64,000 bases of DNA, from assembly GCA_019057865.1 (NCBI GenBank), contig JAHLWP010000001.1:128001-192000 (forward strand), read 5' to 3'. The notes under the pieces were generated by a model. That model searched no databases. It saw nothing but the letters and a program-made list of their open reading frames with translations, and had not been told where the DNA came from. Below, one piece after another: positions 10,351 through 42,600 of the stretch. Position numbers and translations under genes: made by a program. This stretch comes from Promethearchaeota archaeon (lineage in GTDB: Archaea; Asgardarchaeota; Lokiarchaeia; Sigyniarchaeales; SOKP01). Every line of letters starts with the position of its first letter. Position 1 is the stretch's first letter.

Positions 10351-11868
10351 TTATTTTTCACCCCAAAAATTAAATTTTCCTCTACTTAATATCATTTTTG
10401 GATCTAAAGTTTTTTTATTTGATTTCATTACATTATAATACTCTTCTGAATATGCTCCGATATCAACCATAACACGAGACATATAATCTCCCATCATGTA
10501 CCATTGTACACCATGCTCAGTAACTCTTTTCAACAGAGATTTCCATAGTTTTATATTTATTTCATCGATAATTTTATGGGCTTCTCCATTATAGAAACTC
10601 CAGAAACTAGTAAACCCACAAGTAATTTCTACATTAGTTCCATCTATTAATAGAATTGGACCACTTCCTGCAATACATCTTATTTTAGTAATTTCAAAGA
10701 TTTTTTGCATATCTTCTTGATGCTCAAAATCCCATTGATCAATATCATCTAAGATACTAGGATATTGTATTATAGGACTAAAACATTCGGCTGTGAGAGG
10801 TTGTATAGTAGGAAAGATTCCCCATAAATTATGATAGAATTGCCAATGTCCTTGTTCAGTATAATGCCATTTAGCGATATTCCCATCTGATATTTCAGGT
10901 CCTAGTTCTTCACTTTTATTTTCCACCATAATCTTATCTAATTGCCTTATCTTTTCGTCTAGCTCTTTTTCAGAATTTGCTTCTATGGTATAAAAGATCA
11001 TACCTCTCTTTTTTTTTAGATCATCCCATAATGGCAAAAATTTTTCTTGCGTCCCAAATCTCACAAGCAGATCCATAATATACATTAAATCATAAACATC
11101 AATTCCTTTTTGTCTAATCTCACTCATCATCTGAGCAGAAATTTCAAGTGAGTTTCGAGGCATTAAAAATGTTTTATAACCAGCATATTCAGGTTTAGGA
11201 AAAACTTGCAGTGAAACTTTTGTTTTTACTCCAAAAATTCCATTATCACCACAAAAAAGTGCAGCTAAATCAGGACCATTTCCAAATCTATTAAATGGGA
11301 ATTTTGAATGTATATTTGCTTGAGATCCTGTTTCAATGATTTCACCAGTTGGCAAAACAACTTCCAATGAAACTAGTTGATTAGTACAGGCACCATACTT
11401 AGCACATCCACCACCACCTACTGAATGATGAGAAGGTCCTCCTCCTATTGATGATGTCAATCCAGATCCTGGACCCATACACCCTGTGTAAAGCCCAAAA
11501 TGACATAAATATTCATTTAGTTTACTTCAAGAGATACCAGCTTCCACAGTAACTATTAAATTATCTATATCCAAATTCAATACTTTATCCATACTTTTTA
11601 GATCTAAGACAATTCCAGTATCTCCAATAGGTTTACTCCCTCCAAACTCACAGTCTCCACCACCTCGAGGGATAACTGGTACATTCTTTTCATTGGCAAT
11701 TTTGAGAATATATGAAATTTCTTCTGTAGTTTTAGGACGTATAACAATATCAGGAACACCTTGAAGATTGGAAGTAACATTCCGGGAATAAGCGTGTCGA
11801 ACATATAAGTCATTAGATATCCTATTTTTGGACACTATTCTTTCTAATTTCTGGTACAATCCTGACAT
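10351..11868 (-). pseudogene. FAD-binding oxidoreductase copy 2, with in-frame TGA (11527-11529) at a Trp position
   Basis: ORFs 11527-11868 and 10351-11478 share one frame: EAGIS*SKLNEYLCHFGLYTGCM versus EAGISWGKLNEYLCRFGLYTGCM in copy 1. Span is 1518 nt, the same as copy 1. Confidence 0.82.
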
Positions 11869-11887
11869 TTTAAATCTCTAAAATAAT

Positions 11888-13151: not shown

Positions 13152-14669
13152 TTATTTTTCACCCCAAAAATTAAATTTACCTCTACTTAAAATCATATTT
13201 GGGTCAACAGTTTTTTTGATTGATTTCATTAAATTATAAAATTCTTCTGAATAAGCTCCAATATCTACCATGAAGCGAGACAAAAAATCACCCATCATAT
13301 ACCATTGTACTCCATGTTTTATTACCCTTTCTAAGAGAGATTTCCATAATTTTATATTTATTTCTTTGATGATTTCATGGATTTCTTCATTATAATATCT
13401 CCAAAAGCTGACAAAACCAGTTGTTATCTCAACATTATTACCGTCTACTAGAGGAACGGGACCACTACCTGATATAGGACGAGTTTTCGTAATATCAAAT
13501 ATTTTTCGCATATCTGCTTCATTTTCTATATCCCATTGATCAACATCTTGCAAAATTTTGGGGAATGCACTAATTGGGCAAAAACATTCAGCTGATAAAG
13601 CTTGCATTGAAGGAAACATTCCCCATAGATTATGATACAATTGCCAATGTCCTTTTTCAACATAATGTCATTTAGCAATATTTCCATCAGATATTTCTGG
13701 ACCTAAATTTTCAGATTTTTTATTCAAAATCATATCATCTAATTTCTTAACATTTTCATTTAATTCAACTTCAGAATTTGCTTCTATAGTATAGAAAAAC
13801 ATTCCTCGCCTACGTTTTAAATGTTCCCATAACGGAAAGAATCCTTGGTCTGATCCTATAGCAACCACAACATCTGGAATAAACATCGCATCATAAACAT
13901 CAATTCCCTTTTGTCTAATTTCATTCATAATCTGTGCTGCTGTTACAGCAGATTTACGAGGCATTAAAAAAGTTTTATATTCTGCAAATTCCGGTTTAGG
14001 AAATACTTGTAAAGAAATTTTTGTTTTTACACCAAAGATTCCATTATCCCCACAAAAAAGACCTGCTAAATCAGGCCCATTTCCAAATCTATTGAATGGT
14101 AATTTCGAATATTTATTGGCCTGAGAACCGGTTTCTATTATTTCTCCTGTTGGTAAAACTACTTCCAGAGAAATTAATTGGTTAGTGCAAGCACCATATT
14201 TAGCACATCCTCCTCCACCAACAGAATGATGAGAAATACCCCCACCTACTGATGCACTCATCCCAGAACCAGGTCCCATACACCCTGTATAGAGTCCAAA
14301 ACGGCACAAATATTCATTTAGTTTTCCCCAAGAAATTCCTGCTTCAACTGTTGTTATGAGATTATCTTCATCTAAATTAATAATGTTATTCATTCTTTTC
14401 ATATCTAAAACTATACCCCCATCTCCAATAGGTTTGCTTCCACCAAATTCGCAAATACCAGCTCCACGAGGGATAACAGCTATATTCTCTTCATTGGCAA
14501 TTTTAAGGATTTCTGAGATTTCTTTTGCATCTATTGGTCTTATAATAATATCAGGTACTCCTTGTAAAACAAGATCAACATTTCTGGAATAAGCATGGCG
14601 CACATAAATATCATTTGAGAGAAACTCTTTTGATACTACTTTTTCTAACTTTTTGTAGACTTCTGACAT
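13152..14669 (-). pseudogene. FAD-binding oxidoreductase copy 1, with in-frame TGA (13668-13670) at a Trp position
   Basis: DGNIAK*HYVEKGHWQLYHNLWG versus DGNIAKWHY in both paralogs; otherwise full length (PRGAG, GPDL..F.GDNGIFGV, DPNMILSRG). Confidence 0.8.
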
Positions 14670-32253: not shown

Positions 32254-33066
32254 TTGTATTATATGATAAAAAGTATATATTTCTTGGACGAGAATGGATT
32301 TTTGTTATATTCCAAAAATTTTATGAAAGAAAAATATGATGAAAATATCTTAATAGGATTTTTTTCATCAATCGCTAACTTTAGTAGAGAAGCTTTAGGA
32401 GGTTTAGTTAAAAATGTTGATCTCGGGGAAAATAATAAGCTTATTTTACTACCGAATTCAGAAGAAAGAATTCTCGTAGCTACTGTTGTAAGTACTAATG
32501 ACAATAACGATTTAGTTACATTAATTGTTAAAAATATAATGCAAGATTTCATTGATTCTTATTCACCTGATTATGATCTTGAAACAATTTACCCTGATGA
32601 TATGGAAAGAATAATTAACAATAATTTAAGAGGGAAAATTATGCCTTCTCCAAGGATAAAATTATTATTGTCATGGCTAATCGTAGGATTTTTATGCTAT
32701 TTTCTAATTCTCCTGAGCATAAACGTAACTTCTTTTATGTATACATCTTTTAATTTGAACCGATTCTTTACTCCAGAACAATTATTTACAAGATTTATGC
32801 CTATTTTAATATTATTGTCTACAATAAATATAATTATTTTATTTTTGCTCCCTAATTTAATTCTAGGGTTTTTGTCTCTAAATTGGAAAATTGCTACTTT
32901 AAACTCTTTCATATATCTAGGGATAACTATTACACTATATTTCTATTCAACAGAACCTAATTTCGCCTATATTATTGTAGGGCATTTACCATTGTCTTTA
33001 ATCTTCTCTCTGTTTTTCCTCTTTATTGGTGCAAGATATTCATCAAAAATGTTTTTAAAAAGATAA
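32254..33066 (+). CDS. Longin-like domain fused to four TM helices
   Basis: IKSIYFLDENGFLLYSKNF...LIGFFSSIANFSRE longin pattern; hydrophobic C-terminal half. Confidence 0.65.
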   Translation: MYYMIKSIYFLDENGFLLYSKNFMKEKYDENILIGFFSSIANFSREALGGLVKNVDLGENNKLILLPNSEERILVATVVSTNDNNDLVTLIVKNIMQDFIDSYSPDYDLETIYPDDMERIINNNLRGKIMPSPRIKLLLSWLIVGFLCYFLILLSINVTSFMYTSFNLNRFFTPEQLFTRFMPILILLSTINIIILFLLPNLILGFLSLNWKIATLNSFIYLGITITLYFYSTEPNFAYIIVGHLPLSLIFSLFFLFIGARYSSKMFLKR

Positions 33067-33196
33067 TTTTTAATATTTCTTTTTATGTAAAAGCTAACTG
33101 GTTTGCCAATTTTTTATTTAGTAATTTATAAGAATAGAGGAGGTTTAAATATAAGATTATAGATATGGTATTAATAGCAAGATTTTGTTTTAGAAT

Positions 33197-33784
33197 GTGA
33201 GAGTCCTTATGATTATCCCTAAAGTAACGAAGAAGATCCAAGTAATATGTCCAATCTGTAAATCTAAGGATATAGTTGGCATACCAGAATCAAAGATGAA
33301 AACAAAATCTCAATTAATAACAGTTTCAATTCATAAGGGGTTAATCTGCCCTCATCATTTTCAAATTTTTATTGATAAAGATTTTCATGTTCGCGGGTAT
33401 CAGAAAGTAGATCTTGAATTGGAACAAAATAATGTTAAGAACTTAAGAAATGGGGTAAAAGCGTTTATTCCGCATGAAGAGGACGACGAAGAATTGTTTG
33501 AAAATATTATTATGGAGGGCAATTCTTTAAAATACCGCCCTTTAAATTATGCCGATAATGAAAAAACAACCTGCAGAAAGAATGAAAATGTCCCAAGAAA
33601 AAAAGACATGACTTTAAAAGAAATTTATGAGGAATTTTGGGAATTTATTGATGAAGAAAATGAAGAATTTCGAGATTTCATTATTAATGATAAAAGAAGG
33701 AAAAAATTTCCCATGGATTGTGAATATATTGAAGTTTTTAACCATTTGAATTTAGAATCAAAAAATTCAATAGAGAATTTCTAA
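33197..33784 (+). CDS. Hypothetical zinc-binding protein
   Basis: CPICK...ICPHHFQIFIDKDFHVRGYQKVD. Confidence 0.6.
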   Translation: MRVLMIIPKVTKKIQVICPICKSKDIVGIPESKMKTKSQLITVSIHKGLICPHHFQIFIDKDFHVRGYQKVDLELEQNNVKNLRNGVKAFIPHEEDDEELFENIIMEGNSLKYRPLNYADNEKTTCRKNENVPRKKDMTLKEIYEEFWEFIDEENEEFRDFIINDKRRKKFPMDCEYIEVFNHLNLESKNSIENF

Positions 33785-33982
33785 CTAATTTCTGCTTTTT
33801 CTCTTCATTTACAATAATTTACAATAATGTAATGTTATGATTCGGAATTCTACAAAACTTCCATAAGAAAAAGTTATCTTTTGCTTGAAAAAGATATAAG
33901 AAAATTTAAAATTTAGTAGTTAATTTTCCAAGATATTATATTATATTAATAAAAAAATCAAAAAATATGAAGAAAGATTAAA

Positions 33983-35502
33983 ATGTCATATAAATTACCA
34001 GACGAGAAAGATTTAGAAGCTATGATAGGCATTGTGGGAAAAGAATATGCTACAAATAATAAAGCTATTACTGCGTCTTACCTGTCGAAATCAGTAATGG
34101 GTTTAGAAATCTATTATCCAAAATCGGATAATGACTAAAGAGCCAAATCCCTGATATCGTCGTTCGACCGAAATTTGTTGAAGAAATCCGTAAAATCTTA
34201 ATATATTGCTCTGCAGAAAAAATTGCAGTGAGTCCCGTTTCAGCAGGATTATCTGGTGGCTTTGCTTGCCCAACAATTAAGCCCGGTGGAGTACTTCTCG
34301 ATTTAGGAAGAATGAACAGGATTATTGAAATTGATACAGAGAATCGGTATGTCGTTGTCGAACCGGGGGTAACAATTGGTGAACTTTGGGCTTATATGCA
34401 TAAGAATACTCCAGATTGGGCGCCCCCTATACCAGATGGTGCTCCACCAGCCTCAACTGTTATGGGCGACGCTATTGATAGAGGTTTTTCTCTCTATACT
34501 TCAAGCGTTGGACCACAAGGAGATAATTTTATGTGCGGAGAAGTTGTATTTCCAAATGGTGATATTGTACGAACTGGCTCTTGGGCTCTTCCTTTTGCTA
34601 AACCTTTTTATAAATATGGGTTAGGACCTGATATTTGGTCAACTATTATGGGTAGTCAAGGAGCTTTAGGAGTGGTTACGAAAGTCGCAGTTAAGATTTT
34701 TCCACATCCTGAATTTAAGACAGTAGTTGTATGGGGTATGTCCAACCCTCATGATATGCAAGATTTAACGTTAGAAATTGGGAAACAAGAATTTGGAATT
34801 GCCCATAACACTGTTATGGTTCAAGGCGGAAATTATCATTTAGTCATGGCTCGATGGCCTAAAGATAAAGTACCCCATGATTATGAATTCTATAAAGAAC
34901 TAGGAATTAGTAAATGGTGGATGAATTGGGAGTGCTGGGCACAAACTCAAGAAGAGTTGGACTATGTAACTAATAGAATTAATAAAATGGCCGAAGATTT
35001 CAAGAAGAATAGAGCTAAAGATCCTGATGCATTAAAACCTCAGGAACTTCATCCGAAACAAATTGCAAGCAGGTTAAAAAAACCTAATAAAATTGCTATA
35101 CCCTATAGTTTCTGGGAAGCGGGATTTTTATTTATTACTTGGTACACTCCATGGAATGAATGTGCCCATTTTGCTGAAATGTATACAAAGGCAATGGAGA
35201 AATATGGATTCCCACCAGTTATGTGGATCGCGAGTATCGAACGCTGCCGACAAGCAATTTGTATGCCCATTATTTGTTTCGATTCGACTAACACCTCAGA
35301 ATTTGAAAGAGTTCAAGATATGAATAGAGAAACAACTGAATACGGGCTTAAACAAGGATGGTTGAATTATAGACCAGACCCATACATTCACGCTCCTCTT
35401 ACATATAGTCAAGCTGGAATGTACTGGAAATACTTAAGAAAGATAAAGAAGATGTTTGATCCTAATATGATAATGCATCCTGGGAGGCTTGCCCTTCCAT
35501 AA
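33983..35502 (+). CDS. FAD-binding oxidoreductase, intron-containing (exons 33983-34108 and 34141-35502; 495 aa spliced)
   Basis: Exon 1 MSYKLPDEKDLEAMIGIVGKEYAT...SVMGLE plus exon 2 SQIPDIVVRPKFVEEI...VEPGVT...GPD...GSQGALGVVTK...DPNMIMHPG. The ORF track shows only 34228-35502. Confidence 0.88.
34109..34140 (+). other. 32-nt canonical bulge-helix-bulge mRNA intron
   Basis: GGU-UUAG-[AA^A]-UC(U)AUUAUCC(AAAAUC)GGAUAAU-GA-CUAA-[AG^A]-GCC. Excision removes a UAA stop and the frameshift. Confidence 0.9.
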
Positions 35503-35523: not shown

Positions 35524-36927
35524 ATGACAAAAACAGGTATGGAAAGACTCCAAGAGCTAAAAAAAGAAATTTTTAAATGTATTCATTGTAAGGCATGTAA
35601 GTTCGCTTATTCTGGTGAACCTGATAGGGAAGGAATAGGAGAGTATGCTGGAAAGCAAGGTACAGTACTTTATGAAGGAATGGTCGATGCTTGCCCCGCT
35701 GGTATAGAGTATGGTTGGGAAGCGTTCTGGAATGCAGGTAAGATTTGGATTGCTAGGTCAATATTAACGGGTGATTTAGAATTTACTGAAGAAGTCAGGG
35801 ATGTAATTTTGCCATGCATAACATGTGGTCAATGTTCAGCCCAGTGTGATAATAAGATTCCAACAGTTGATATTATAGAATCTTTACGGGCTGCGTGTAT
35901 AGAATCAGGAGTGCCTATGATCGAAAAACATGAATTAGTTGACAGATTGGTTAAAGAATTGAACAATCCATATGGAGGTAAAGCAGAAGAACGATTTAAA
36001 TGGGCAAAAGATGCTGGTTTAGAAAAATATATAGATAATAAAGAGGCCAAAATTGCATATTATGTAGGATGTACTGCAAGTTATCGACAAATAGAGGTTG
36101 CTGTTACAACTGCAAAACTATTTGAACAATTAGGAATGAATTTCACTATAATCGGAGATGAAGTTTGCTGTGGAAGTCCTTTCTTTAGGATTGGAGCTGT
36201 TGATACTGCCCAAGAATTAATGAATAAAAATTTAGAAGCTTTTAAGAATCTAGAAATGTTATATTTCAGTTGCGCGGGTTGTTATAGAACTTTTACCATT
36301 GATTATCCAAAATGGATGCCTGAAGGTGAAGAACTTCCTTTTAAAACACAGCACGCCTTTGAACTGGTGGCGAGATTAATTCAAAAAGAGAAAATCAAAT
36401 TCAAACCAAACAAAGAATTAAAGGGAAAAGTTGTCACTTATCATGATCCCTGCCATACAGGAAGACATTTCGCAGTAGATTTTGAACAAGAAATGATCAG
36501 AGAATCTAAGAATCTTATGTTCGATTCGCGAAAGATTAAGAAAAAAATCGAGGAATGGTATGAAATTCCACGTATAATTCTTAGAAAACTTGCAGAGGAT
36601 GTCGGTATTGTCTTTAAAGAGATGTATCGTATTAAACTTGATAGTATGTGTTGTGGTGCTGGTGGAGGGGTGAGGGCTGGATATCCCGATTTTTCGCTCA
36701 GAACCGCCAGTTTGCGATGTGATGAAGCGAATGCTGTTAGTGCAGATATCTTAACAACTGAATGCCCCTTTTGTTGGAGGAATTTATCCGATGCCAATGA
36801 TATGTACAATCACGGCATGAAAGTTATGGGAATTCTTCAGATGATAACTGAATATAATCTTTTAGACATGGCAGAAAAACCTAAAGAAGAAGATTTCTTA
36901 ACGCCATCTATTAGAGAGATTGAGTGA
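35524..36927 (+). CDS. HdrD/GlpC-type (Fe-S)-binding oxidoreductase subunit
   Basis: CIHCKAC, CITCGQCSAQC, EVCCGSP, YHDPCHTGRH, CCGAGGG, ECPFC; GGAGGT ribosome-binding site upstream. Confidence 0.92.
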   Translation: MTKTGMERLQELKKEIFKCIHCKACKFAYSGEPDREGIGEYAGKQGTVLYEGMVDACPAGIEYGWEAFWNAGKIWIARSILTGDLEFTEEVRDVILPCITCGQCSAQCDNKIPTVDIIESLRAACIESGVPMIEKHELVDRLVKELNNPYGGKAEERFKWAKDAGLEKYIDNKEAKIAYYVGCTASYRQIEVAVTTAKLFEQLGMNFTIIGDEVCCGSPFFRIGAVDTAQELMNKNLEAFKNLEMLYFSCAGCYRTFTIDYPKWMPEGEELPFKTQHAFELVARLIQKEKIKFKPNKELKGKVVTYHDPCHTGRHFAVDFEQEMIRESKNLMFDSRKIKKKIEEWYEIPRIILRKLAEDVGIVFKEMYRIKLDSMCCGAGGGVRAGYPDFSLRTASLRCDEANAVSADILTTECPFCWRNLSDANDMYNHGMKVMGILQMITEYNLLDMAEKPKEEDFLTPSIREIE

Positions 36928-39641: not shown

Positions 39642-42600
39642 TTGACAGTAATTGAACAAAAAACAGCTTATCCTTATATTACGGAATTTAAAAAGGAACC
39701 ATTTAAATCATTTGTGCTCAAAAAAGGAAGAGAAATAGGGACTTATTATCTTAGTGGTTATGATAAAGTTGTAGAATTCTATCAAAACTTTAATAAAACT
39801 TTACTTGCTAATGAGTCATTAAACATTAAAATGATTTATTGGTTTCTCTTATTAAGGAAATATCTTAAAGAAGATAAGTATGAATTTAGAAATGAAATAT
39901 TTGAATATATTAAAAAATGTGAAATTCATAAAAATAATCAAATAGGTTTTAAATTTAAACCTGATTCCCCAAATATACCTGATATTTGGTCAACTTATTT
40001 TGCTCTTTCCAGTTTGAAACTCTTAGGACTTTTGGATGAATACTTTGCCATATCAGATCAGAACCAATTTAGAGAAGAAATTATAAATTTTATTTTAACT
40101 CACAGGAAAGGAAATGGATTTTTACATTGTCTGGAAAAAAGTTGTGAAATTGATAAAAAGCCTTTAGCAGTAAAGACATTATATTACGTAATAGAAATAT
40201 ATACTATTCTAGGAATTGATATACGTCTAAAAAAGGATAAATTTAGTTCATATATTGGTGATAGAAAAAGAAATCCTTCTTTAATTTTTAAGTTATTATG
40301 TTTGAAATTTTTAGATCTAAATTCTGAAGTTAGTGAAAAGGATATTCAATACTTCCACCAATTTCAAAGGGAAAATGGTGGATTTAGTTTTAGACAAATT
40401 GGAGAAATTGATACTACCTTTTGGATAGTATATGGCCTTGAGAATTTTTCATGGTTATTAGATTATAATCCTGCTGGTATATTTTCTTTTATTAATATTA
40501 AAATTGTTGAAATATTAAACGATCAGGCAGGTTGGAATTTAAATAAATTAATTGATATTTCAAAATTAATCATTCTTCTGTCATTGATATGGAAAAAATT
40601 TATCAATGAAATTGAAAGGTTAATATTTAGACAATTAGAAAAAGAGAAATACATTGATTTAAATCAAATTAAAAGCAGATTTGGTTTATCAAATGTGATT
40701 GAAGAGATAATCTCTTATATAAATCTGAGCTATAATTTCAATTTAAAAATCTTGATTAATAAGATTGAATTTAAAAATTTTATTCGTAACCTAAGTCAAG
40801 GGAAAAGAATTGTTGCTCAAGAGATATATAATCAACTTTCAAATAAGAGTATAATATCCCTTAAAAAAATATTTAAGGATTGTAAATCCAAATACTCTTT
40901 TAAATCCTTAAAATTAAAAGATGATATCATTCCCTTAGTAGATCAATTAATTCAACGTAATTTTTTTAAGGGTAAAATAGTGAAAAAGAGGTTCTATATG
41001 GATTTCTTTCTTGAAAGAATAATAGTTTGCGATACAGAGATAAATTTAGAGCAATTATTACATGAAAAAGAGAAATTGAAGGATATAAAGAACGACATTT
41101 ATAATATGACTTTAAAATTAAAAAATATTACATCACAAATAAAGGATGAAATTGAATCTTATTTAATCTTAGATGAGATTGATTATGCAAAAGAGAGATT
41201 AAAATTTATTGTAAGAAATGCATTAATGGATGCTGATTTTCTTAATGAAAATATTGAAAATTCATTTAATGAAGAACTATATTATCTCAACATTCAGACA
41301 TTATTAAAGTCTGATATTACTCAATGGAATAAATTGTATTCTGTAATACAAAAAAGATTAAGCGAAATTGATTCATATTTAAAAGAGAAAATTTCAGAAA
41401 AAGAAAATTTAAGGGATATAAGTAACCTACTAGAAAAATTAAAAGAAAAAATTGGTAGTATTACTGAGGAAACTACTAAAAAAATTGATGATTTTAGAAA
41501 TTTGTTTAGGGAAACTCTTGAACAAGGTTATAGTAAAGAAAAATTCGATCTTATTGTTCAAGAATTTGATAAAATTTCACAGAGTGTCAGTAAATATGAT
41601 AATATAATTTACAATGTCTCTCAACAGGTTACTACAAAAGAAAAAAAGGTTCTAAATAAACATAAAAAAGTTATTGGTGATTGGTTAAGTTTTAAAGAAA
41701 ATTTTGAATCTATTTTTAGCTATTATACCTCAGGTTTTCAATTCTTTAATACTAATATGAAAAAGATTGATGATATTAAAGAAAGAGTTAAAATTGAGAT
41801 ATTGGAAATAAGTGAAAAAGCTAAGAATATAACTGATAATAATCTATTTCAAGAAGCATTTAATGTTATTAAACAAGAATCTGATGTACTTCTTGATAAT
41901 AAAACAAAAGAAATTAAAGAAATCCAATCAAAAGTCAAAAAAGATATTAAATCCAAACAAAAACTTTATCTTCTCTATGGGTATTTATTGGAAGCATTAG
42001 ATAATTTGGAAGTGAATATCATTGAACTAATAGCAGAAAGGGTCCAATCTTTAAAGAATAAAGTGGTTATTGAGAGGAATCGTACTCAAATTGAAGATTT
42101 TGATAATTTTGTATCACAAGAAGTTGGTAAATTTAAAACAGAATTAAATAACTTTAAAAGTCAATTAGATCAAATGAATAATCTCAAAATCAATTACGTT
42201 ATTAAAGGTTTTGATGATATTATAGCCATATTTGAAGCTGCTAATAATATATATTTAAAAAAATTAACTAAATGTAAAAAAACTATTGATGATTTCGAAG
42301 AAAAATCGAAAGTAACCATAATACAATGGGAAAAATTTAAGGAATTTCTAAGTAATGAGATACCAGCCTTAAAAGATAAATATATAAATGATATTATTTC
42401 AAAAAGAATCAATTTATTTGCTTATGAGAAAAAATCAAATTATATTAAATTAAGCGATTTAAAAAATGATTTAAACCTAAGTTGTAAAGTTTTAATTAAT
42501 AAGATCAAAGATATGATTGATATCTCTAAAATAAATGCAGAACTTAATGAAGATGATAAATATCTACTTGTTTATACAAATAATTATTATTTGAATAAAG

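What the first reader, a model, noticed from the sequence alone, without database searches (positions are those of the whole stretch)
34100..34144. Canonical BHB intron in a protein-coding (FAD oxidoreductase) gene
Seen: the gene starts at ATG 33983, runs into TAA within 34109-34140 and resumes in another frame at 34141. The junction folds as a textbook bulge-helix-bulge: outer helix GGU/GCC, perfect 4-bp central helix UUAG/CUAA, two 3-nt bulges (AAA, AGA), inner stem AUUAUCC/GGAUAAU. Established: archaeal splicing endonuclease EndA cuts after the second nucleotide of each bulge. Applying that rule removes exactly 32 nt and gives GGU UUA GAA AGC CAA AUC CCU GAU (GLESQIPD), which aligns with the intronless paralog VLQGVPDIIIRP. 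The archaeal mRNA introns I know well are the crenarchaeal cbf5 ones; one in an Asgard metabolic gene would normally be mis-annotated as a frameshift.
Basis: partly seen in the sequence, partly recalled or inferred. Interest (0 to 1): 0.96.

Follow-up and report, generated by a model that had tools for sequence, protein, structure and literature searches.

The report
tRNA-type mini-intron in Asgard enzyme gene
A 32-base insert shaped exactly like an archaeal tRNA intron splits a FAD-dependent oxidoreductase gene of an Asgard (Promethearchaeota) archaeon. Comparison with about 130 relatives indicates that it is cut out of the messenger RNA, which papers I could search confirm inside an archaeal coding sequence only for cbf5.

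Summary
Window 34109-34140 is a 32-nt insert flanked by a canonical bulge-helix-bulge (BHB) motif. Cutting after the second base of each bulge joins 33983-34108 to 34141-35502 into a 495-aa FAD-binding oxidoreductase.

- **Junction:** the joined gene reads GLE|SQIPD, exactly as in 32 intronless orthologs of the same genus.
- **Distribution:** ten species of the genus and one of a sister genus carry an insert at this site. So do eight independent metagenome contigs and one NCBI MAG.
- **Variants:** the insert occurs in four forms (29, 31, 32, 36 nt). All keep the BHB, with compensatory changes in four pairs, including synonymous exon sites.
- **Selection:** exon 1 is under purifying selection (pN/pS 0.08).
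- **Enzymes:** the genome encodes two EndA subunits and RtcB.
- **Gain and loss:** presence follows short recombination tracts around the site, giving two gains and two losses in the gene tree.
- **Second case:** I verified a 32-nt BHB insert in an acs gene of the same genome.
- **Earlier notes:** this scan already noted similar mini-introns on other DNA of this genome (thiolase, iolM, leuS, acs, 5S rRNA).

Missing: RNA evidence. The public RNA runs do not cover this organism's junction. Best explanation: an EndA/RtcB-spliced mRNA intron, confidence 0.88.

The parts
33983..34108 (+). Exon 1: 42 codons, MSYKLPDEKDLEAMIGIVGKEYATNNKAITASYLSKSVMGLE
   Evidence: Translation. It is 93% identical to residues 1-42 of a 495-aa public ortholog. 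pN/pS is 0.084 among the 10 intron-bearing genomes.
34109..34140 (+). 32-nt BHB intron. The predicted EndA cuts lie between 34108|34109 and 34140|34141.
   Evidence: It is precisely absent from 32 same-genus orthologs. It is single-copy in the genome. Mean pairwise divergence is 0.10, against 0.30 at third codon positions in the rest of the gene.
34141..35502 (+). Exon 2: 453 codons plus TAA. The FAD_binding_4 domain starts at its 4th residue.
34100..34106 (+). 5' strands of the outer helix (GGU) and the central 4-bp helix (UUAG). Both lie in exon 1 (codons Gly-Leu-G of Glu).
   Evidence: 100% paired in 13 distinct sequences. U-A changes to C-G and A-U to G.U in the variants.
34107..34109 (+). 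Bulge 1 (AAA), holding the 5' splice site after its second base
   Evidence: Invariant in all variants.
34110..34134 (+). Inner helix h' and loop: UC/GA, a bulged U, 7 bp AUUAUCC/GGAUAAU, loop AAAAUC
   Evidence: This is the part that varies most between genomes. It is replaced by different hairpins in the 29-, 31- and 36-nt variants.
34135..34138 (+). 3' strand of the central helix (CUAA). It lies in the intron and contains TAA 34136-34138, the stop of the unspliced exon-1 frame.
34139..34141 (+). Bulge 2 (AGA), holding the 3' splice site after its second base
   Evidence: It reads AGA, AUA, AAA or UUA in relatives, so it is unpaired and sequence-free.
34142..34144 (+). 3' strand of the outer helix (GCC). 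It comes from the Ser codon AGC plus the C of CAA.
   Evidence: All 13 intron-bearing sequences use AGY for this Ser. Most intronless ones use TCN, and only 10 of 28 can form the helix.
34090..34094 (+). 5' strand of an extended exon-exon helix (AUCAG)
   Evidence: It pairs with 34151-34155 in the MFE fold. Two of its five pairs covary at synonymous sites: AUCAG/CUGAU, AUCGG/CCGAU, GUCUG/CAGAC.
34151..34155 (+). 3' strand of the extended exon-exon helix (CUGAU)
   Evidence: It is fully paired in 10 of 10 intron-bearing orthologs and in 12 of 28 intronless ones.
35524..36927 (+). Downstream partner gene: an Fe-S protein with two CCG domains and a 4Fe-4S dicluster domain (HdrD/GlcF/TfrB-like)
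   Evidence: The same neighbour is present in the NCBI record with the 36-nt variant.

Best explanation
Window 34109-34140 is an archaeal bulge-helix-bulge intron inside the coding sequence of a GlcD-like FAD-binding oxidoreductase.

Proposed mechanism:
- The pre-mRNA folds so that exon 1 bases GGU-UUAG pair with the intron's 3' end (CUAA) and with exon 2 (GCC). This presents two 3-nt bulges either side of a 4-bp helix. An intron hairpin and a further exon-exon helix (AUCAG/CUGAU) stabilise the fold.
- The two-subunit splicing endonuclease EndA cuts after the second base of each bulge.
- RtcB joins the exons. The mRNA then encodes a 495-aa enzyme reading ...SVMGLE|SQIPDIVVRPK..., which works with the Fe-S/CCG protein encoded downstream.
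- Unspliced RNA would give only a 51-aa peptide.

Population behaviour: the intron is polymorphic. It is old enough to exist as four diverged variants at one site. It is gained and lost between related species by homologous recombination of short tracts (about 100-250 nt) around the site.

Shown: anatomy, exact absence in orthologs, covariation, purifying selection, the enzymes, and the recombination tracts. Inferred: the cleavage and ligation themselves.
For: 1. The BHB geometry is canonical, with a chance rate of about 1e-6 per placement.

2. The product of the cut rule equals the intronless orthologs. All 38 rebuilt coding sequences (10 spliced, 28 intronless) give 493-495 aa with GLESQIPD.

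3. The insert is at the same site in 10 of 42 informative same-genus genomes and in G103 of another genus. It is absent from the other ~110 orthologs in the order. It is also present in 8 metagenome contigs and one NCBI MAG, so it is not an assembly artefact.

4. Four variants (29, 31, 32, 36 nt) all give a BHB with cut offsets 0/0. On 13 distinct sequences, 169 of 169 cells pair. Four pairs carry compensatory double changes, 0 of 500 shuffles reach this, and slid controls pair in only 13-46% of cells.

5. Exon synonymous sites covary with their partners. The helices are complete in all intron-bearing alleles but in only 36-43% of intronless alleles.

6. Exon 1 pN/pS is 0.084 in intron-bearers and 0.077 in intronless genes. 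Codons 21-42, next to the intron, have pS 0.31 and pN 0.015.

7. The intron evolves about 3 times more slowly than third codon positions.

8. Two EndA paralogs score above the TIGR00324 cut-off, and RtcB is present. Asgard EndA is reported as the broad-specificity (alpha-beta)2 type (PMC5829648).

9. A second gene of this genome has the same kind of insert. It is acs on contig C82, with a 32-nt BHB insert. The exons match AMP-binding profile positions 6-211 and 215-321, and the junction reads WYCTA|DIGWITGHSY.

10. Orthologs in sister genera carry similar 30-33-nt inserts at other positions of this gene.
Against: - No RNA evidence. The four public runs that share words with the gene hold relatives, and none bridges this organism's junction.
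- The thermodynamic MFE fold pairs the core slightly differently.
- Within the 32-nt type alone there is no compensatory change, and three genomes have one mismatch in the inner stem.
- The covariation rests on three diverged variants, so on few independent events.
- Two paralogs in the same window carry in-frame TGA codons where relatives have TGG. Some decay of this gene family in this genome is therefore possible.
Confidence: 0.88

Rival explanations
1. Pseudogene: the 32 nt are an inactivating insertion, and the BHB-like fold is irrelevant.
For: The genomic reading frame is broken. Two paralogs in the same window carry nonsense TGA codons where relatives have TGG. There is no RNA proof of splicing.
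Against: The insert is kept in at least 11 species and several metagenomes with no other lesion in either exon. Exon 1 pN/pS is 0.08, the same as in intronless genes. The insert is conserved more than synonymous sites and shows compensatory changes. The chance of such a BHB at the exact boundaries is about 1e-6.
Confidence: 0.04
2. Translational recoding: ribosomes frameshift (-1/+2) or hop over the insert, with the hairpin acting as a stimulator.
For: The two frames differ by 2 nt. A stop follows at 34136. A stable hairpin sits in between.
Against: - The exon-2 frame is closed by TGA 34132-34134, so a shift could only occur within 34135-34138 (C UAA). No slippery X XXY YYZ site is there.
- A shift would add about 11 residues, and these are not conserved as protein. 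Variants are 29, 31, 32 and 36 nt with unrelated sequence and different length classes mod 3.
- For hopping, the take-off codon GAA has no matching landing codon before AGC.
- The conserved feature is the BHB, not a peptide or a slippery site.
Confidence: 0.03
3. Two separate genes: a 51-aa ORF, and an N-terminally shortened enzyme started inside exon 2. This is how gene callers annotate it.
For: A public NCBI record calls a 448-aa product from an internal GTG just after its insert. In the window the first start codon in the exon-2 frame is GTG 34228.
Against: GTG 34228 would delete the first ~29 residues of the FAD_binding_4 domain, which begins at residue 4 of exon 2. Exon 1 is homologous to the N-terminus of the 495-aa orthologs and is under selection. 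The junction codons are conserved up to the cut sites.
Confidence: 0.04
4. Assembly or sequencing artefact in this MAG.
For: The source is a metagenome-assembled genome, and the gene is mosaic around the insert.
Against: An independent 1901-nt metagenome contig (L068) is 98.6% identical over window 32796-34696 without gaps. It includes the insert and the same mosaic. The insert is also present in 10 other species genomes.
Confidence: 0.01

Closest known systems
BHB intron in the cbf5 (pseudouridine synthase) pre-mRNA of Crenarchaeota (Watanabe 2002; Yoshinari 2006; Yokobori 2009, PMC2738675)
   Same: It is a short BHB-flanked insert inside a protein-coding sequence that breaks the frame unless it is removed by the tRNA-splicing endonuclease. 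The hosts have hetero-oligomeric EndA. Its distribution is patchy, with inferred gain and loss. It has been mis-annotated as a frameshift.
   Different: The gene differs (a metabolic FAD oxidoreductase, not an RNA-modification enzyme), and so does the phylum (Asgard/Promethearchaeota). Here there are four structural variants at one site, polymorphism within a genus tied to short recombination tracts, and further intron positions in orthologs. Splicing is experimentally shown for cbf5 but not here.
Archaeal tRNA and rRNA BHB introns (Marck & Grosjean 2003; Asgard tRNA introns in PMC11291895 and bioRxiv 10.64898/2026.10.13.758758)
   Same: The hBHBh' motif, the cut rule and the enzymes (EndA, RtcB) are the same, and the size is similar (about 30 nt). 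The host genome is rich in tRNA introns: 18 of the 30 tRNAs that ARAGORN found carry one.
   Different: The substrate is an mRNA. The exon half of the motif must also encode protein, and this is met here through synonymous codon choice (Leu UUA/UUG/CUA, Ser AGY, and Lys/Ser/Pro/Asp third positions).
46-nt BHB intron in the 5' UTR of Haloferax volcanii HVO_1309 (PMC7714728)
   Same: EndA processes an mRNA at a BHB.
   Different: That intron lies in the untranslated leader and does not interrupt the reading frame.
HAC1/XBP1 unconventional mRNA splicing in eukaryotes (Ire1 plus tRNA ligase/RtcB; from my own knowledge; the RtcB-HAC1 link is cited in PMC5829648)
   Same: Splicing is non-spliceosomal: an endonuclease plus a tRNA-type ligase removes a short intron that changes the reading frame.
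   Different: The endonuclease (Ire1) and the recognition motif (twin stem-loops) differ, and that system is stress-regulated. No regulation is shown here.

Membership tests
Archaeal BHB (hBHBh') intron, EndA/RtcB-dependent | [quoted passage not shown] | tested here: met
   Bulges at 34107-34109 and 34139-34141, helix 34103-34106 with 34135-34138. The same holds in the 29-, 31- and 36-nt variants.
Archaeal BHB (hBHBh') intron, EndA/RtcB-dependent | Flanking helices h (exon-exon) and h' (intron) | tested here: met
   Helix h is GGU/GCC plus AUCAG/CUGAU. Helix h' is 2 + 7 bp.
Archaeal BHB (hBHBh') intron, EndA/RtcB-dependent | Cutting after the second bulge base yields the functional, ortholog-like product | tested here: met
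   The spliced sequence reads GLESQIPD, identical to 28 aligned intronless orthologs.
Archaeal BHB (hBHBh') intron, EndA/RtcB-dependent | The structure is maintained by covariation | tested here: met
   169 of 169 cells pair, 4 pairs have double changes, and 0 of 500 shuffles reach this. Few independent events underlie it.
Archaeal BHB (hBHBh') intron, EndA/RtcB-dependent | The host encodes the splicing endonuclease and the RtcB ligase | tested here: met
   Two EndA paralogs score 92 and 68 bits against a cut-off of 59.6. RtcB matches at 1.7e-168.
Archaeal BHB (hBHBh') intron, EndA/RtcB-dependent | The intron is excised and the exons are ligated in RNA | tested here: inconclusive
   Public RNA runs hold only relatives. 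No contig of this organism bridges the junction.
cbf5 pre-mRNA intron family | Located in the cbf5 gene at the crenarchaeal position | tested here: not met
   The host gene is a FAD_binding_4 oxidoreductase. It works like the cbf5 intron but is not a member.
Programmed ribosomal frameshift site | A slippery heptamer inside the overlap of the two open frames | tested here: not met
   The overlap is only 34135-34138 (C UAA), with no slippery site.
Pseudogene | Relaxed selection and additional lesions | tested here: not met
   pN/pS is 0.05-0.12 in both exons, and there are no further stops or frameshifts in 10 genomes.
Self-splicing group I/II intron or other known RNA family | A match to a curated RNA model, or an appropriate size | tested here: not met
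   There is no Rfam match at E <= 1 in 33700-34500. At 32 nt it is far too small.
GlcD (glycolate oxidase subunit D) equivalog | A score above the NCBIfam equivalog cut-off | tested here: not met
   TIGR00387 scores 94.7 bits against a cut-off of 567.9. It is a FAD_binding_4/PCMH-type oxidoreductase of a GlcD-like superfamily. The substrate is unknown.

The most novel reading that the evidence does not exclude
This site may be one visible piece of a lineage-wide system. Promethearchaeota of this family would carry a population of about 30-nt BHB micro-introns in many protein-coding genes, spliced by the tRNA machinery. The introns would persist for long periods, since four diverged variants exist at one site. 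They would move between species as short recombination tracts, and they would force synonymous exon sites to co-evolve as half of the splice signal. That would be routine, enzyme-catalysed mRNA splicing in the closest prokaryotic relatives of eukaryotes.
Probability: 0.6. Interest if true: 0.9.

Novelty: new member of a known kind. Interest (0 to 1): 0.8.

Why it matters
In the papers I could search, splicing of an archaeal coding sequence by the tRNA endonuclease is confirmed only for cbf5 of Crenarchaeota (PMC2738675, PMC7714728). This case puts the same mechanism in a metabolic gene of an Asgard archaeon.

It also comes with unusually rich comparative material:
- intron-bearing and intronless alleles within one genus;
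- four variants at one site;
- covarying synonymous codons;
- recombination tracts that explain both gain and loss.

That makes several questions directly testable: how BHB introns enter and leave protein genes, how coding sequence and splice signal are reconciled, and how far mRNA splicing extends in Asgard archaea.

There is a practical consequence too. Such genes are annotated as truncated or frameshifted (a 448-aa 'MVRPK...' product in an NCBI MAG), so metabolic reconstructions of these genomes under-call intact genes.

Tried and rejected
- **RNA evidence.** Four runs (3 RNA) held 5% of the sampled words. The laid contigs were mostly under 90% alike, and none from this organism bridges 34100-34150. 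One RNA contig of run X2 leaves the window at 34107 and continues GAGTCAAATTCCGGATATTGTT. That is letter for letter the genomic junction of intronless species (G064/G060/G047), so it says nothing about splicing.
- **TGA = Trp recoding.** I considered this because two paralogs have in-frame TGA at Trp positions. Rejected: in-frame splits by TGA (29 of 338) are no more frequent than by TAA or TAG.
- **Repeat or MITE.** Rejected: the 32 nt occur once in the genome.
- **Known RNA family.** There is no Rfam match.
- **Covariation within the 32-nt type alone.** None was found, because there is too little variation. It appeared only after the 29-, 31- and 36-nt variants were added.
- **Genome-wide census of BHB inserts that join ORFs, and a paralog-supported version.** Counts at the true cut rule equalled those at cut sites shifted by 1-2 nt. 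These scans are uninformative in either direction. They did yield the acs case.
- **Two other BHB-like motifs in the window.** These are at 40655 (33 nt, in frame) and 24862 (32 nt). Five relatives align across them without an indel, so they are probably chance.
- **Two extra pattern hits in metagenomes (L072, L075).** They lie in other genes. L072 joins no ORFs. L075 is an in-frame 30-nt stretch inside a long ORF. Neither was followed up.

Full report
**Observation.** The sequence is as described.
- A frame opens at ATG 33983 and stops at TAA 34136-34138.
- Another frame is open from 34141 to 35502. It is closed just upstream by TGA 34132-34134.
- Bases 34100-34144 can form an hBHBh' motif. 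The outer helix is GGU/GCC and the central helix is UUAG/CUAA. The bulges are AAA and AGA.
- The inner helix has 2 bp, one bulged U, then 7 bp, with a 6-nt loop.
- A further exon-exon helix, AUCAG (34090-34094) with CUGAU (34151-34155), appears in the ViennaRNA fold.
- Cutting after the second base of each bulge removes 34109-34140 (32 nt).
- Exon 2 carries a FAD_binding_4 domain that starts at its 4th residue. The next gene encodes a CCG/4Fe-4S protein.
- In this 4.26-Mb, 29% GC genome, a BHB as good as this occurs at a given position and length with frequency about 1e-6. The frequency is 2e-4 for a relaxed definition.

**Organism.** The closest public homologs are named Promethearchaeota/Promethearchaeati, that is Asgard archaea. 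ARAGORN finds introns in 18 of the 30 tRNAs it detects. The genome encodes two EndA paralogs, both above the TIGR00324 cut-off, and RtcB. This fits the (alpha-beta)2 EndA with the L1 insert that has been reported for Asgard archaea (PMC5829648).

**Orthologs.**
- In 54 genomes of the genus, 43 have the ortholog. Ten of these have an open frame of only 453-455 aa, and each carries a 32-nt insert at the same site.
- The other informative orthologs (32) run through without a break and read MGLESQIPD.
- After removing the insert by the BHB rule, all 38 rebuilt coding sequences give 493-495 aa with the same junction.
- Across the order (154 genomes, 127 with the gene), one further genome, of another genus (G103), has an insert at the site. 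It is 31 nt long.
- A pattern scan of metagenomes found eight more contigs with the insert in this gene, one of them with a 29-nt variant.
- An NCBI MAG record has a 36-nt variant. There the gene is annotated from an internal GTG as a 448-aa product.
- A 1901-nt metagenome contig is 98.6% identical to window 32796-34696, including the insert. The arrangement is therefore not an artefact of this assembly.

**Structure conservation.** All four variants give a BHB whose cut sites coincide exactly with the insert boundaries.
- On 13 distinct sequences, all 169 pair cells of the core and of the outer exon-exon helix are standard pairs.
- Four pairs carry changes on both sides. The first central pair goes from U-A to C-G. 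The first inner pair goes from U-A to C-G. Two pairs of the exon-exon helix go from A-U to G-C or U-A.
- No shuffle out of 500 reaches these values. Sliding the partners by 1-3 columns drops pairing to 13-46%.
- The exon-side changes are synonymous (Leu UUA/UUG/CUA; third positions of Lys, Ser, Pro and Asp).
- All intron-bearing alleles use AGY for the Ser after the junction, which supplies the GCC strand. Intronless alleles mostly use TCN.
- Intronless alleles can form the outer helix in only 10 of 28 cases, and the extended helix in 12 of 28.
- The second bulge reads AGA, AUA, AAA or UUA, as expected for an unpaired element.
- Caveat: the covariation rests on three diverged variants. Within the 32-nt type alone there are only wobble-compatible changes and three single mismatches in the inner stem.

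**Selection.**
- Among the ten intron-bearing genes, exon 1 has pS 0.48 and pN 0.04 (ratio 0.084). Intronless genes give 0.077, and exon 2 gives 0.12.
- The 22 codons next to the intron have pS 0.31 and pN 0.015.
- So both exons are translated in their own frames in genomes where the DNA frame is broken.
- The intron diverges at 0.10 per site, against 0.30 at third codon positions.

**Gain and loss.** Outside the site, the window's gene is 94-99% identical to three intronless species (G063, G056, G012). It is 78-88% identical to intron-bearing ones.
- In coding nt 72-150, which bracket the junction at 126|127, it matches the intron-bearing alleles at 9 of 9 diagnostic sites.
- G003 shows the same kind of tract. 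It is 97-98% identical to G041 around the site and 77-87% elsewhere.
- Two intronless genes, G021 and G046, sit inside the main intron-bearing clade. They are 98-100% identical to their intron-bearing neighbours except for nt ~60-210, where identity falls to 78-88%.
- So presence or absence follows the local tract, not the gene tree. The intron is exchanged by homologous recombination with flanking co-conversion.
- For cbf5, loss had been attributed speculatively to reverse transcription (PMC2738675). Here the replaced flanks argue for allelic recombination instead.

**Context.**
- A scan of my own picked out a 32-nt BHB insert in an acs gene on contig C82. Its exons match AMP-binding profile positions 6-211 and 215-321, and the junction restores WYCTA|DIGWITGHSY.
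- Orthologs of the FAD oxidoreductase in sister genera carry 30-33-nt inserts at other positions.
- One of these, in G108, contains an in-frame TAA. By eye it has a BHB with a weak outer helix, and removing it restores LFI|TW.
- Earlier notes of this scan describe similar mini-introns in thiolase, iolM, leuS, acs, a GTPase and 5S rRNA genes of this genome. I treated these as leads only.

**Rivals.**
- Pseudogene: contradicted by selection, by conservation of the insert and by covariation.
- Frameshifting: it would have to happen within 4 nt that hold no slippery site, and it would add unconserved residues. The variants also differ in length class.
- Two separate genes: this would delete the start of the FAD domain and leave the conserved exon 1 unexplained.
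- Artefact: excluded by independent assemblies.

**What is missing.** There is no RNA evidence. The public RNA runs that share words with the gene contain relatives, and none bridges this organism's junction.

**Literature.** Searches of the held library found BHB introns in archaeal mRNAs only for cbf5 and for the 5' UTR of HVO_1309 (PMC2738675, PMC7714728, PMC5829648). Recent work on Asgard introns concerns tRNA genes (PMC11291895; bioRxiv 10.64898/2026.10.13.758758).

**Verdict.** This is a real feature and very probably an EndA/RtcB-spliced mRNA intron. It is a new member of the known kind defined by the cbf5 intron. It sits in a new phylum and a new gene, and it has informative population genetics.

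Noticed in passing
window 13668-13670 (-) and 11527-11529 (-): Two paralogous FAD oxidoreductase genes (13152-14669 and 10351-11877, minus strand), each next to a CCG/Fe-S gene, carry an in-frame TGA. The closest relatives have TGG (Trp) at exactly these codons. A genome-wide test shows no TGA recoding. They are therefore nonsense mutations, sequencing errors or read-through sites.
   Followed up: partly
L048:548-579 (-) = G000 contig C82: An acetyl-CoA synthetase gene of the same genome has a 32-nt BHB insert (CGGC/GCUG central helix). Removing it restores WYCTA|DIGWITGHSY and makes the AMP-binding profile coordinates contiguous.
   Followed up: yes
L077:346-381 (+), NCBI GCA_040961635.1 JBFOMZ010003552.1: A 36-nt variant of the intron lies at the same site, with a CUAG/CUAG central helix and an in-frame TAA. 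The public annotation starts the protein at an internal GTG (448 aa, MVRPK...).
   Followed up: yes
L079 (G108), L080 (G148), L081 (G091), L082 (G150): Orthologs in sister genera carry 30-33-nt inserts at other positions of this gene (after coding nt ~1121, ~1199-1205, ~1273, ~1361). The G108 insert has an in-frame TAA and a BHB with a weak outer helix. The G091 insert has a BHB with one A.G mismatch. The insert shared by G148 and G150 (~1199-1205) gave no BHB hit under my rule. The second G150 insert (~1361) gave a BHB hit offset by 4 nt, with 3 of 4 central pairs.
   Followed up: partly
window 33983-35502, coding nt ~1216-1350 of the spliced gene: There is a second stretch where the window's gene drops to 82-86% identity with its three closest relatives. 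It may be another recombination tract unrelated to the intron.
   Followed up: no
L075:3172-3218 (+), metagenome contig Ga0209034_10003952: A different gene contains the same exon-side BHB core (GGUUUAGAAA ... CUAAAGAGCC) around an in-frame 30-nt stretch inside a 470-aa ORF. This is either chance or a related intron in another gene.
   Followed up: no
G000 whole genome: ARAGORN detects only 30 tRNA genes in a genome estimated 99.7% complete, and 18 of them have introns, often at non-canonical positions. Many tRNA genes are probably too interrupted to be found.
   Followed up: no
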